Assembly: GCA_018296565.1 (NCBI GenBank)
Contig: GCA_018296565.1_3935.1
Length of the DNA: 64,000 bases
Direction: 5' to 3' (one strand)
Source of the DNA: a phage
Shown: in pieces, positions 24,288 to 24,364 of the stretch
How positions within the stretch are numbered: the first letter of the stretch is position 1
How the letters are laid out: each line of letters opens with the position of its first letter
Notes under the pieces: generated by a model
Database searches by the model: none
What the model was told of the DNA's origin: nothing
What the model saw: the letters and a program-made list of their open reading frames with translations, nothing else
Program-made: the position numbers and the translations under genes

Positions 24288-24364
24288 TGCGGGTATAGAG
24301 AAAGGGCGTCTCACATGTCTCATTAGCATGGTATCGGCAGGTTCGACTCCTGCACCCGCCTCCA
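24288..24364 (+). ncRNA. atypical tRNA-like element (possible CAT anticodon; irregular D-arm and 1-72 mismatch)
   Basis: Good T-arm gcaggttcgactcctgc and 6 bp acceptor stem plus CCA, but D-arm and anticodon-loop geometry are non-canonical. Confidence 0.4.

What the first reader, a model, noticed from the sequence alone, without database searches (positions are those of the whole stretch)
24288..24364. Non-canonical tRNA-like element with intact T-arm and acceptor stem (Y RNA or tRNA-mimic candidate)
The element has a textbook T-arm (gcaggttcgactcctgc), a 6 bp acceptor helix with an unpaired first position and encoded CCA. The D-arm is irregular and the putative anticodon loop (ctcatta, CAT) has a pyrimidine at position 37. 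It could be an unusual Met/Ile2 tRNA, but the geometry also fits tRNA-like modules of Y RNAs. Its spacing from flanking tRNAs is larger than for the canonical genes.
Basis: inference. Interest (0 to 1): 0.55.

Follow-up and report, generated by a model that had tools for sequence, protein, structure and literature searches.

The report
Odd initiator-type tRNA in Felix-O1 phage
The element is a real, highly conserved but oddly shaped methionine tRNA of the initiator type carried by Felix O1-like phages; it is not a Y RNA, although the unannotated repeats on both sides of it look like Y-RNA-type partners of the Ro60-like protein encoded just upstream.

Summary
Window 24288-24364 folds as a cloverleaf with CAU anticodon, textbook T arm, encoded CCA and an unpaired 1-72 position. 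It is non-canonical: one extra base between the acceptor and D stems, a 6-nt variable loop and U37. Rfam tRNA-clan models score it at most 15.9 bits.

It is not decaying: only 2 of 77 columns vary across 18 Felix O1-like phages. Orthologues in deeper Ounavirinae, T5-like phages (one annotated tRNA-fMet) and an unrelated phage keep initiator hallmarks: a 1-72 mismatch with varying bases, the G2-G6/C67-C71 stem of E. coli tRNAfMet, and G30:C40. Best reading: a derived initiator-type tRNA.

It is not a Y RNA. However, the unusually long spacers around it each hold an unannotated RNA unit: a covarying closing helix, 5' AAG, UUACAGCAA, a variable insert and 3' CUG. There are four units in the window; unit 4 carries a permuted, YrlA-like tRNA mimic. 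The upstream gene (Bas63 gp130 orthologue) is Ro60-like by fold. The same RNA module accompanies this protein family in at least 48 of 75 distant phage loci, always on the gene strand, and matches the defining features of Dictyostelium Class I RNAs.

The parts
24288..24364 (+). Initiator-type tRNA(CAU) gene, 77 nt including encoded CCA (orthologue of Felix O1 Felix01t003 and Bas63 bas63_0133)
   Evidence: ARAGORN call and fold; the cloverleaf is the MFE fold; annotated tRNA-Met in Felix O1 and Bas63; only 2 of 77 columns vary across 18 phages.
24288..24294 (+). Acceptor 5' strand U1 G2 C3 G4 G5 G6 U7. U1 is unpaired opposite C72 (24360); 2-7 pair with 24354-24359.
   Evidence: Positions 2-6 and 67-71 are identical to E. 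coli metY initiator tRNA. The 1-72 position is mismatched as U-C, C-C, U-U or A-C in homologues, and is a U:A pair in L032 and L035.
24295..24297 (+). Three-nucleotide linker A-U-A between the acceptor and D stems (canonical tRNAs have two, U8 and N9)
   Evidence: Orthologues in L032, phage Wc4, T5-like phages and L006 have two nucleotides here, so the extra base is specific to the Felixounavirus/SUSP lineage.
24298..24312 (+). D arm: stem GAGA/UCUC (A11:U24 in standard numbering) and loop AAGGGCG
   Evidence: It aligns with the GAGC/GCUC D stem of E. coli metY, whereas the elongator metT and ileX have GCUC/GAGC.
24314..24330 (+). Anticodon arm: stem CAUGU/GCAUG (U29:A41, G30:C40, U31-G39) and loop CUCAUUA, with anticodon CAU at 24321-24323 and U37 at 24324
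   Evidence: G30:C40 is kept in all close homologues. U37 is shared with L032 and Pectobacterium phage Wc4.
24331..24336 (+). Six-nucleotide variable loop GUAUCG (canonical class I tRNAs have 4-5 nt)
   Evidence: The loop is 5 nt in L032 and L006, 4 nt in Wc4 and 6 nt in T5-like phages.
24337..24353 (+). T arm GCAGG-UUCGACU-CCUGC
   Evidence: An exact 24-nt match including this arm retrieved 23 viral contigs.
24354..24364 (+). Acceptor 3' strand ACCCGCC, discriminator U73 and encoded CCA
23889..24009 (+). Two sigma-70-type promoter-like sites (TTGACA-17-TAATAT at 23889-23917; TTGACA-18-TAAAGT at 23980-24009) upstream of the cluster. No + strand terminator-like site before the next promoter-like site at 25383.
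   Evidence: These are consensus matches only; co-transcription of the target with its neighbours is inferred.
24202..24279 (+). NEIGHBOUR, not part of the tRNA: Y-like RNA unit 1. Outer helix UGAC/GUCA, AGA/G internal loop, inner helix AGACCAA/UUGGUCU, UUACAGCAA, 43-nt insert, 3' CUG.
   Evidence: Hit by a covariance model built only from distant phages (29.3 bits, E 9e-5).
24368..24438 (+). NEIGHBOUR: Y-like RNA unit 2 (outer helix UUAC/GUAA, which is UUGC/GCAA in other phages; inner helix AGACCGU/ACGGUCU)
   Evidence: Model R1 scores 29.1 bits, E 1e-4. Rfam RF01414 scores 21.1 bits, below its threshold.
24762..24843 (+). NEIGHBOUR: Y-like RNA unit 3 (outer helix GAGC/GCUC)
   Evidence: Model R1 scores 14.9 bits, E 0.29.
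24851..24987 (+). NEIGHBOUR: Y-like RNA unit 4. Same closing module, plus an internal circularly permuted tRNA-like domain: V hairpin, T arm GAAGG-UUCGAUU-CCUUC, closed acceptor-like hairpin ACUCGGC-AGAU-GUCGAGU, and D arm GUGU-AAUGGUA-GCAC.
   Evidence: The MFE fold shows all arms. The acceptor-like hairpin is remodelled, with a compensatory change, in SUSP phages while the T and D arms stay invariant. The order V-T-AS-D is that described for YrlA.
22455..23870 (+). NEIGHBOUR: Ro60-like protein gene (471 aa; Pfam DUF2828 + DUF7788; orthologue of Felix01p079 and Bas63 gp130)
   Evidence: Pfam. AF2 model with pLDDT 86.4 and pTM 0.88. The 12 best PDB matches are all Ro60/TROVE over the full length, E about 1e-7. 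Orthology to bas63_0130. Published as Ro60-like and a Ppl counter-defence gene.

Best explanation
The element is a genuine, selectively maintained phage tRNA gene descended from the bacterial initiator tRNA (tRNAfMet).

Proposed mechanism:
1. It is transcribed from strong early sigma-70-type promoters as one cistron of a polycistronic precursor. That precursor also carries tRNA-Pro, tRNA-Glu, four Y-like RNAs, tRNA-Asn, tRNA-Tyr and tRNA-Asp (inferred).
2. RNase P cuts its 5' end, and 3' trimming stops at the encoded CCA (inferred).
3. Host MetRS charges it through the CAU anticodon.
4. The unpaired 1-72 position together with G2:C71 and C3:G70 are the established determinants for methionyl-tRNA formyltransferase. 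The same mismatch is the established anti-determinant for EF-Tu. The tRNA is therefore routed to initiation rather than elongation (inferred from established identity rules).
5. In the ribosomal P site it relies on the single retained G30:C40 pair, the one pair of the 'three G:C' signature shown to be crucial in E. coli.

It completes a 27-tRNA set that covers all 20 amino acids and has a second, fully paired CAU tRNA for elongation.

Some derived features are lineage-specific departures. U37 occurs in all three sampled Ounavirinae lineages (Felix O1-like, L032, Wc4). The extra base at the 7/8 junction, the 6-nt variable loop and U73 are the others. They may alter recognition by host factors or by tRNA-targeting defences; that step is speculative.

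The element is not a Y RNA and not a component of the neighbouring Ro60-like RNP.
For: Shown:
- ARAGORN cloverleaf with CAU anticodon and encoded CCA; it is also the MFE fold.
- Strongest conservation in the region: 2 of 77 variable columns, against 11-16% for the neighbouring tRNAs that align without gaps (Pro, Glu, Asn, Tyr), 6% for the second CAU tRNA, and 20-53% for the spacer units.
- Acceptor positions 2-6 and 67-71 and the GAG/CUC D stem with A11:U24 match E. coli metY. The elongators metT and ileX have a pyrimidine11:purine24 pair.
- The 1-72 position stays non-Watson-Crick while its bases change: U-C in the window, C-C in SUSP phages, U-U in T5-like phages and L006, A-C in Pectobacterium phage Wc4. 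It is the weak pair U:A in L032 and L035.
- G30:C40 is retained throughout. Wc4 has A29:U41/G30:C40/G31:C39, a variant type known in natural initiators.
- Less-derived orthologues are clearly closest to the initiator. L032 is 69/54/53% identical to metY/metT/ileX, and the T5-like copy is 68/59/61%.
- The T5-like homologue is annotated tRNA-fMet in phage DaisyDussoix.
- E. coli survives on initiators that keep only the middle G:C pair (PMC5389676).
- Orthologues occur without any Ro60-like gene or ACAGCAA unit nearby: T5-like phages, L006 and Wc4.
Against: - Two of the three signature G:C pairs are missing. The flanking pairs are pyrimidine:purine (U29:A41, U31-G39), which in E. coli mutants lowers fitness.
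- The discriminator is U73, not A73.
- U37, the extra linker base and the 6-nt variable loop could impair MetRS, formyltransferase or ribosome interactions.
- Rfam tRNA-clan models score it at most 15.9 bits.
- Whole-sequence identity of the window copy itself does not discriminate: 61% to metY, 61% to ileX, 57% to metT.
- The Wc4 orthologue has U11:A24 rather than A11:U24.
- The BASEL annotation labels the Bas63 copy tRNA-Met, not fMet, and some records leave it unannotated or call the T5-like homologue 'pseudo'.
- Bas63 tRNA genes were mostly non-essential in laboratory hosts.
- No expression, charging or formylation data were found.
Confidence: 0.6

Rival explanations
1. A non-translational tRNA-shaped RNA. 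In one version it is a decoy or resistant substitute aimed at host tRNA-directed defences. In another it is 'punctuation' whose RNase P and 3'-processing sites release the flanking Y-like RNAs from the precursor.
For: It sits exactly between unit 1 and unit 2, with only 8 nt and 3 nt of spacer. It has non-canonical core geometry and U37. Phage tRNAs are known to counter tRNA-targeting defences such as PARIS (papers listed). The adjacent Ro60-like gene is itself a counter-defence gene.
Against: Punctuation alone would not require the invariant anticodon loop and acceptor identity elements. Orthologues exist in phages without any Y-like units. Units 3 and 4 are adjacent to each other with no tRNA between them. 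In most distant loci the units follow the gene with no tRNA nearby; only 27 of 75 loci hold any tRNA.
Confidence: 0.15
2. An elongator tRNA-Met, or a tRNA-Ile2 whose C34 is converted to lysidine.
For: The anticodon is CAU. It lacks the three G:C pairs. Most records annotate it simply tRNA-Met. Its identity to ileX (61%) equals its identity to metY.
Against: The 1-72 position is unpaired, and this is preserved across base changes; by established knowledge this disfavours EF-Tu binding. The purine11:pyrimidine24 pair is of the initiator type. A second CAU tRNA with a G1:C72 pair and C11:G24 is present at 25214-25290 for elongation. For Ile2, G4:C69 and G5:C68 are the reverse of the TilS determinants and U37 cannot be t6A (established knowledge, not tested here).
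Confidence: 0.1
3. One reading: a tRNA-like module of a Y RNA, or a tRNA mimic bound by the Ro60-like protein.
For: It is encoded 418 nt downstream of a Ro60-like gene on the same strand. Its tRNA geometry is non-canonical. The PhageMaP authors speculated that some Bas63 'tRNA genes' are Y RNAs.
Against: It has a free acceptor end with encoded CCA, and no closing helix of its own. The only possible enclosing helix pairs 9 of 11 positions and does not covary. No YrlA or Y RNA model hit was found. It lacks the AAG-stem-UUACAGCAA-CUG module that marks the RNAs associated with this protein family, and model R1 does not hit it. The lineage occurs without the protein. A much better tRNA-mimic candidate, the permuted domain of unit 4, lies about 500 nt downstream.
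Confidence: 0.05
4. A decaying tRNA pseudogene with no function.
For: Covariance-model score is low. One T5-like homologue is annotated 'tRNA-Pseudo-CAT'. It carries extra nucleotides, U37 and U73.
Against: It is the most conserved segment of the region and identical in about 107 records at 99% or more. All four stems are intact. U37 and the 1-72 mismatch are conserved across Ounavirinae genera.
Confidence: 0.05

Closest known systems
Bacterial initiator tRNA (tRNAfMet; E. coli metY/metZWV)
   Same: CAU anticodon; non-Watson-Crick 1-72; identical G2-G6/C67-C71 acceptor pairs; A11:U24 in a GAG/CUC D stem; G30:C40; C32 and U33; T-loop UUCRA.
   Different: Only one of the three consecutive G:C pairs; U73 instead of A73; U37 instead of A37; one extra base between positions 7 and 8; 6-nt variable loop; U1-C72 instead of C1-A72; below Rfam tRNA thresholds.
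tRNA-fMet of T5-like phages (DaisyDussoix bas31_0105; annotated 'tRNA-Pseudo-CAT' in Yersinia phage phiR2-01)
   Same: Same UGCGGGU...ACCCGCx acceptor with a 1-72 mismatch, U73, A11:U24, G30:C40 with U31-G39, 6-nt variable loop, and a near-identical T arm; about 78% identity over the 3' half.
   Different: The T5-like copies have the canonical 2-nt 8-9 linker, a longer D arm and a standard CUCAUAA loop with A37.
YrlA-type bacterial Y RNAs (Rfam RF02553; Chen et al. 2014, PMC4201824)
   Same: For the target, only the neighbourhood: it is encoded next to a Ro60-type gene on the same strand. Unit 4 (24851-24987), not the target, shares the YrlA layout: the 5'/3' ends closed by a helix, then V, T, a closed acceptor-like hairpin and D. 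Related units in L035 are hit by RF02553 at 39.1 and 29.6 bits.
   Different: The target is an ordinary-topology tRNA with a free CCA end and gets no YrlA hit. The units carry AAG-stem-UUACAGCAA...CUG instead of the YrlA GNCGAAN0-1G motif. All hits are below the gathering score of 69, and window unit 4 is not hit at all.
Dictyostelium Class I RNAs (Rfam RF01414; Kjellin et al. 2021, PMC7919456), compared with the flanking units and not with the target
   Same: About 60 nt; 5' AAG; 6-bp terminal stem in which structure rather than sequence is conserved; invariant 5' G pairing with the C of a 3' CUG(U); the motif (C)UUACAGCAA directly after the 5' strand; variable remainder.
   Different: The units are in phages, next to a Ro60-like gene, in tRNA operons. 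There are 2 rather than 3 nt between stem and ACAGCAA. The Felix O1 copies add an outer 4-bp helix. Some units carry tRNA-like inserts of up to 160 nt. Rfam scores are 17.5-22.3 bits against a gathering score of 41.5. Class I RNAs are reported as unique to Dictyostelia, with Rnp1A/CIBP as the known binder.
Ro60/Rsr-Y RNA ribonucleoproteins (for the neighbouring gene)
   Same: Full-length TROVE + vWA fold match to Xenopus, human, Deinococcus and Thermus-phage Ro60. Small structured RNAs are encoded alongside on the same strand.
   Different: Only 11-17% sequence identity; no hit to Pfam TROVE or to PDB by sequence. It is a separate family (DUF2828/DUF7788, PHROG 850) that is also found in giant viruses.

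Membership tests
Bacterial initiator tRNA (tRNAfMet) | CAU anticodon in a 7-nt loop with C32 and U33 | tested here: met
   The loop is CUCAUUA with CAU at 24321-24323.
Bacterial initiator tRNA (tRNAfMet) | No Watson-Crick pair between positions 1 and 72 | tested here: met
   U1 lies opposite C72. The mismatch is kept as C-C, U-U and A-C in SUSP, T5-like/L006 and Wc4 orthologues, and is the weak pair U:A in L032 and L035.
Bacterial initiator tRNA (tRNAfMet) | G2:C71 and C3:G70 (formyltransferase determinants) | tested here: met
   Identical to E. coli metY across positions 2-6 and 67-71.
Bacterial initiator tRNA (tRNAfMet) | Purine11:pyrimidine24 (A11:U24) in the D stem | tested here: met
   The D stem GAGA/UCUC in the ARAGORN fold aligns with metY GAGC/GCUC. 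The elongators have C11:G24. The Wc4 orthologue is an exception, with U11:A24.
Bacterial initiator tRNA (tRNAfMet) | Three consecutive G:C pairs 29-31:39-41 in the anticodon stem | tested here: not met
   The pairs are U29:A41, G30:C40 and U31-G39. Only the middle pair is kept; it is the one shown to be crucial in E. coli (PMC5389676).
Bacterial initiator tRNA (tRNAfMet) | Charged with methionine, formylated, and used in the P site for initiation | not testable with these tools
   Needs acid-gel northern blots, formylation assays and initiation reporters.
Canonical tRNA (Rfam RF00005) | Covariance-model score at or above the gathering score (29 bits), with a 2-nt 8-9 linker and a 4-5-nt variable loop | tested here: not met
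   Not reported at the gathering threshold or at E<=10. The best tRNA-clan score is 15.9 bits. The linker is 3 nt and the variable loop 6 nt.
Y RNA / YrlA (Rfam RF02553) | The 5' and 3' ends pair in a closing helix that carries the Ro60-binding site | tested here: not met
   The ends form a tRNA acceptor stem with a free CCA. The alternative enclosing helix made from the neighbouring repeats pairs 9 of 11 positions and does not covary.
Y RNA / YrlA (Rfam RF02553) | tRNA-like domain in permuted order (V, T, closed acceptor-like hairpin, D) | tested here: not met
   The target has the standard order. Unit 4 at 24851-24987 has the permuted order.
Y RNA / YrlA (Rfam RF02553) | Covariance-model match | tested here: not met
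   There is no RF02553 hit on the target at E<=10.
Y RNA / YrlA (Rfam RF02553) | Encoded near a Ro60 orthologue on the same strand | tested here: met
   The Ro60-like gene at 22455-23870 ends 418 nt upstream on the + strand. This feature is contextual and is shared by every tRNA in the cluster.
Y RNA / YrlA (Rfam RF02553) | Physical binding to the Ro60-type protein | not testable with these tools
   Needs RIP-seq, CLIP or EMSA with the gp130 orthologue.
Dictyostelium Class I RNA (RF01414), applied to the flanking units only | 5' AAG; 6-bp terminal stem with an invariant 5' G; adjacent conserved motif; 3' CUG(U); about 60 nt | tested here: met
   Seen in window units 1-3 and in 49 distinct distant units. 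An A precedes the G in 47 of 49, and a U precedes (A/U)CAGCAA in 47 of 49; neither feature was imposed by the scan. The definition is from PMC7919456.
Dictyostelium Class I RNA (RF01414), applied to the flanking units only | Rfam gathering score (41.5 bits) | tested here: not met
   Scores are 21.1 and 17.5 bits in the window and 22.3 and 17.5 bits in L035. No hit at E<=1 appeared in 63 kb of five loci.
Ro60/TROVE proteins, applied to the upstream gene | TROVE helical-repeat ring plus a C-terminal vWA domain | tested here: met
   The AF2 model has pLDDT 86.4. The top 12 Foldseek PDB hits are all Ro60, with 516-564 aligned columns and TM 0.50-0.64. Sequence-level membership (Pfam TROVE, PDB phmmer) is not met.

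The most novel reading that the evidence does not exclude
They encode a previously undescribed class of Y-RNA-like partners for the DUF2828/DUF7788 branch of Ro60-like proteins, to which the anti-defence protein Bas63 gp130 belongs. These RNAs are built from a terminal AAG-stem-UUACAGCAA...CUG module, with an optional permuted tRNA mimic as insert. That module is the same RNA class as the Class I RNAs of Dictyostelium, which have no known mechanism and were thought unique to social amoebae. If so, Class I RNAs would be Y-like RNAs of a Ro60-like RNP shared between phages, giant viruses and eukaryotes. In this reading the target is a defence-evading initiator tRNA co-transcribed with them, and its processing sites help release units 1 and 2.
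Probability: 0.35. Interest if true: 0.85.

Novelty: new variant of a known kind. Interest (0 to 1): 0.45.

Why it matters
For the element itself: it shows that a widespread phage lineage keeps an initiator-type tRNA that breaks several 'universal' rules and is still under the strongest constraint in its operon. It has one G:C pair instead of three, U37, and an expanded core. That makes it a natural test case for the minimal requirements of bacterial initiation, and for whether phages supply their own initiator to survive host attacks on tRNAfMet.

For annotation: it explains why pipelines disagree, calling it tRNA-Met, pseudo, or nothing.

For the neighbourhood: the PhageMaP study proposed that some Bas63 'tRNA genes' might be Y RNAs for the Ro60-like counter-defence protein gp130. 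This analysis indicates that the partners are not the annotated tRNAs but four unannotated RNAs between them. It also defines their conserved module across many phages. That makes the RNP, and its possible kinship with Dictyostelium Class I RNAs, directly testable.

Tried and rejected
1. Rfam tRNA or Y RNA models as classifiers for the target: no usable hit.
2. BLAST of the target and of the second CAU tRNA against 5,426 E. coli genomes, to see which host tRNA they resemble: no match, because the query is too short for the database size. This was replaced by fetching metY, metT and ileX directly.
3. Whole-sequence identity as an isotype discriminator: uninformative for the window copy (61/57/61%) and informative only for the less-derived orthologues.
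4. Folding energy as evidence: z = -1.06, not significant and not used.
5. The reading in which GGUCUGG...[tRNA]...CAGAAGACC forms a helix enclosing the target: rejected. Pairing is 9 of 11 and the covariation follows the within-unit arrangement.
6. Sequence search of the upstream protein against PDB: nothing. Structure prediction plus Foldseek was needed.
7. A first stem-finding script was too greedy: it gave 2 hits, no better than its controls. It was re-coded with the G...C-UG anchor.
8. AFDB fold search, to look for Dictyostelium members of the protein family: the library was unavailable.
9. Avesson et al. 2011, which lists the Class I RNA pull-down proteins: not held in the library.
10. 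Literature search for the motif or for an identified RNA partner: nothing relevant.
11. A leader mini-unit upstream of the window's own Ro60-like gene: none seen, unlike in five distant loci.
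Full report
**Where we are.** The window is a Felix O1-like phage (genus Felixounavirus). The 1.5 kb around the finding is 98% identical to phages NBEco004, Alf5 and wV8, and is present in 265 phage records. The finding lies in a cluster of 27 ARAGORN-predicted tRNAs at 24036-29601, all on the + strand and all with an encoded CCA. Together they cover all 20 amino acids.

**The observation.**
- T arm GCAGG-UUCGACU-CCUGC.
- A 6-bp acceptor helix, with U1 unpaired opposite C72.
- U73 followed by an encoded CCA.
- Anticodon loop CUCAUUA, with CAU and U at position 37.

ARAGORN calls it tRNA-Met(CAU), and the cloverleaf is also the thermodynamic optimum. The irregularity can be stated precisely. 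The D stem is a regular GAGA/UCUC. However, three bases (A, U, A) rather than two separate it from the acceptor stem, and the variable loop has six bases. Covariance models penalise these departures:
- The element is one of three ARAGORN calls that miss the Rfam gathering list.
- It is not reported at E<=10 in a 6-kb scan.
- In a 941-nt scan it reaches only 15.9 bits, and that with the tRNA-Sec model.

Public records reflect the ambiguity. Felix O1, wV8 and Bas63 annotate it tRNA-Met, while many other records leave it unannotated.

**Is it a live gene?** Across 18 Felix O1-like phages aligned over 1.5 kb, only 2 of the element's 77 columns vary. The corresponding figures are 11-16% for the neighbouring tRNAs that align without gaps (Pro, Glu, Asn, Tyr), 6% for the second CAU tRNA, and 20-53% for the intervening spacers. 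A pseudogene would not be the most constrained segment of its operon.

**What kind of tRNA is it?** The informative copies are the divergent ones.

| Copy | 1-72 | 8-9 linker | Anticodon loop | Other |
|---|---|---|---|---|
| Window (Felix O1-like) | U-C | 3 nt | CUCAUUA | 6-nt variable loop, U73 |
| SUSP phages | C-C | 3 nt | CUCAUUA | otherwise identical to the window |
| L032 (distant Felix-like; Ro60-like protein 48% identical) | U:A | 2 nt | CUCAUUA | 5-nt variable loop |
| Pectobacterium phage Wc4 (Ounavirinae) | A-C | 2 nt | CUCAUUA | stem A29:U41/G30:C40/G31:C39 |
| T5-like phages | U-U | 2 nt | CUCAUAA | U73 |
| L006 (unrelated high-GC phage contig) | U-U | 2 nt | CUCAUAA | A73; the only tRNA found in the fetched stretch |

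All of them keep the acceptor pairs G2-G6/C67-C71, and these are identical to E. coli initiator tRNA metY. All keep G30:C40. All but Wc4 keep A11:U24, whereas the E. coli elongator metT and the tRNA-Ile2 gene ileX have C11:G24.

The 1-72 position therefore changes its bases while staying unpaired or weakly paired. That is the hallmark of bacterial initiators. By established knowledge, it is the determinant for formylation and the anti-determinant for EF-Tu.

Whole-sequence identity does not separate the three E. coli CAU tRNAs for the window copy (61/57/61% to metY/metT/ileX). It does for the less-derived orthologues: 69/54/53% for L032 and 68/59/61% for the T5-like copy. The T5-like homologue is annotated tRNA-fMet in phage DaisyDussoix.

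The missing feature is the run of three G:C pairs in the anticodon stem; only the middle one survives. Experimental work shows that this middle pair, G30 in particular, is the crucial one. It also shows that natural au/GC/gu variants exist, and that even cg/GC/cg mutants sustain E. coli at a fitness cost (PMC5389676).

My best reading is an initiator-descended tRNA that is still used as such, with lineage-specific departures. U37 is shared by the three sampled Ounavirinae lineages. The extra base and the longer variable loop arose in the Felixounavirus/SUSP branch. Processing, charging, formylation and P-site use are all inferred, not shown.

**Why it is not a Y RNA.**
- The element has the ordinary tRNA topology with a free CCA end.
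- It gets no Y RNA model hit.
- It lacks the module that characterises the RNAs associated with the neighbouring protein family (below).
- The only helix that could enclose it would use the 3' strand of the upstream repeat and the 5' strand of the downstream repeat. That helix pairs 9 of 11 positions, while each repeat pairs 11 of 11 with itself and carries the compensatory changes.
- The tRNA lineage also occurs in T5-like phages, L006 and Wc4, none of which has a Ro60-like gene or repeat nearby.

**What the 'larger spacing' is.** Each long spacer holds one copy of a repeat: AGAAGACCnnnTACAGCAA ... GGTCTGG. There are four copies in the window against 0.04 expected by chance.

All four fold in the same way:
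- an outer 4-bp helix;
- an AGA/G internal loop;
- an inner 7-bp helix;
- a single-stranded UUACAGCAA directly after the 5' strand;
- a variable insert.

Over 19 distinct flank variants from related phages, 99.5% of cells pair, and 5 of the 11 pairs change on both sides. No shuffle out of 500 reaches the observed covariation score, and slid controls collapse.

Unit 4 (24851-24987) contains a circularly permuted tRNA-like domain: a V hairpin, a T arm, a closed acceptor-like hairpin and a D arm. This is the order described for YrlA Y RNAs. In SUSP phages the acceptor-like hairpin is remodelled, with a compensatory swap, while the T and D arms stay invariant.

**The protein next door.** The 471-aa ORF at 22455-23870 is Pfam DUF2828 + DUF7788 and PHROG 850, 'RNA-binding protein'. 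It has no sequence match in the PDB. An AlphaFold model built from 31 homologues (pLDDT 86.4, pTM 0.88) finds Ro60 structures as its 12 best PDB matches over the full length. These include Xenopus, human, Deinococcus Rsr and Thermus phage phiLo. After them come vWA-only hits, from E about 2e-3 upward.

It is the orthologue of Bas63 gp130. A preprint reports gp130 as Ro60-like and as a counter to the Ppl defence system, and speculates that some Bas63 tRNA genes may be Y RNAs. Relatives occur in many phages and in giant viruses.

**Does the RNA travel with the protein?** I fetched 75 loci encoding 39-48% identical homologues.
- *Unbiased word count.* In the 1.5 kb downstream of the gene, the top non-low-complexity 8-mers are ACAGCAAA, TACAGCAA and TTACAGCA, found in 27-29 of 73 loci. 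About 2 loci would be expected by chance.
- *Anchored scan.* I searched for a 5' G, a perfect 6-9 bp stem, (A/U/G)CAGCAA, and a 3' C followed by UG. This finds 57 units in 40 loci on the gene strand, against 6 on the other strand and 0-2 in shuffles.
- *Features not imposed by the scan.* These are nearly invariant: an A before the G in 47 of 49 distinct units, and a U before the motif in 47 of 49.
- *Independent covariance model.* A model built only from 19 distant units (no Felix O1-like sequence) recovers window units 1 and 2 as its best hits in the whole window (29 bits, E about 1e-4). Units 3 and 4 score more weakly. The model does not touch the target.
- *Strand bias.* Over 869 kb of distant loci, all 58 hits at E<=0.1 lie on the gene strand, in 48 of 75 loci.

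Five loci carry a miniature unit 11-16 nt before the gene's start codon. This hints that the module is the protein's binding site and is also used for autoregulation (inference).

Several units carry permuted tRNA-like inserts. The Rfam YrlA model recognises two of them in L035, at 39.1 and 29.6 bits; this is significant but below the gathering score of 69.

**Resemblance to Class I RNAs.** The only Rfam family that repeatedly touches the short units is RF01414, Dictyostelium Class I RNA. Scores are 17.5-22.3 bits, below the gathering score of 41.5.

The published definition of that family is:
- about 60 nt;
- a 5' AAG;
- a 6-bp terminal stem, conserved in structure but not sequence;
- an invariant 5' G pairing with the C of a 3' CUGU;
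- an adjacent 11-nt motif, CCUUACAGCAA in D. discoideum;
- a variable remainder.

This matches the phage units feature for feature, apart from one nucleotide of spacing. Class I RNAs are reported as unique to Dictyostelia and have no known mechanism.

I could not test whether dictyostelids encode a DUF2828 protein: the AFDB library was unavailable and the pull-down paper is not held. Kinship therefore remains a hypothesis.

**Verdict.** The finding itself is a non-canonical but functional-looking initiator-type tRNA: a new variant of a known kind and of moderate interest. The Y RNA idea is wrong for this element. It is right for its immediate neighbours, which deserve a separate and higher-priority follow-up.

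Noticed in passing
window 24202-24279, 24368-24438, 24762-24843, 24851-24987 (+): Four unannotated paralogous RNA units. Each has a covarying closing helix, 5' AAG, UUACAGCAA, a variable insert and 3' CUG. Unit 4 contains a circularly permuted, YrlA-like tRNA mimic. They fill the 'long spacers' around the target.
   Followed up: yes
window 22455-23870 (+): The DUF2828/DUF7788 protein is Ro60-like (TROVE + vWA) by predicted fold. It is the orthologue of Bas63 gp130, a published Ppl counter-defence gene. The family is large in phages and is also present in giant viruses.
   Followed up: yes
L032-L106 (75 distant phage loci), e.g. L106 7531-7590, L088 3957-4018, L035 4728-5665: The same AAG-stem-UUACAGCAA...CUG RNA module accompanies the Ro60-like gene in at least 48 of 75 loci. 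It is always on the gene strand and often occurs as tandem copies immediately 3' or 5' of the gene. Some copies carry tRNA-like inserts that the Rfam YrlA model detects below threshold.
   Followed up: yes
L033 5952-5988, L039 1762-1797, L045 2857-2892, L037 about 5945-5990, L062 about 5948-5990: Miniature versions of the module (8-17-nt insert) sit 11-16 nt upstream of the Ro60-like gene's start codon. They may be an autoregulatory operator in the mRNA leader. No such element precedes the window's own gene.
   Followed up: partly
window 24210-24275 and 24376-24434; L035 4731-4784: Sub-threshold but repeated hits to Rfam RF01414 (Dictyostelium Class I RNA). The phage units share all published defining features of that family. 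Whether dictyostelids encode a DUF2828 protein could not be checked.
   Followed up: partly
window 24984-25131 (+): A 148-nt element closed by a 24-bp perfect-looking stem, with three internal hairpins. MFE is -48.3 kcal/mol, z = -5.7, and 0 of 200 shuffles fold as well. There is no Rfam hit. It is present or absent among related phages (indel). Its first bases overlap the outer helix of unit 4.
   Followed up: partly
window 25840-25910 and 24534-24621 (+): Two further ARAGORN tRNAs miss the Rfam tRNA gathering score. tRNA-Trp (71 nt) has a degenerate D arm. tRNA-Tyr has a 4-nt spacer between acceptor and D stem and is marked as a pseudogene in the Felix O1 record.
   Followed up: partly
window 25214-25290 (+): The second CAU tRNA has a G1:C72 pair, C11:G24 and U73. 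Its run of three G:C pairs in the anticodon stem is shifted by one position (28-30:40-42). It is presumably the elongator Met or Ile2 species; its isotype was not resolved.
   Followed up: no
window 25309-25614 (+): Weak Rfam hits to permuted tmRNA (29.6 bits, E 0.003) and tmRNA (14.9 bits) lie in the 246-nt gap between tRNA-Ile and tRNA-Arg. That gap also holds the best promoter-like site of the region (25383-25411).
   Followed up: no
window 25925-26329 (+); Felix O1 record 25030-25515: Small HNH-endonuclease-like ORFs are interspersed in the tRNA cluster (weak Pfam HNH hit in the window; annotated HNH endonuclease in Felix O1). They account for some of the indel variation between phages.
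   Followed up: no
L112 2685-2959 (Bas63 bas63_0137, bas63_0138): Two short minus-strand 'hypothetical protein' CDSs are annotated in Bas63 in the region that corresponds to units 3-4 and the 148-nt hairpin. They are probably spurious ORF calls over structured RNAs.
   Followed up: no
L006 7876-7950: A 42-kb high-GC phage contig whose only tRNA in the fetched 9.9 kb is an initiator-type tRNA(CAU) with U1-U72. Its T arm and acceptor stem are nearly identical to those of the window element.
   Followed up: no
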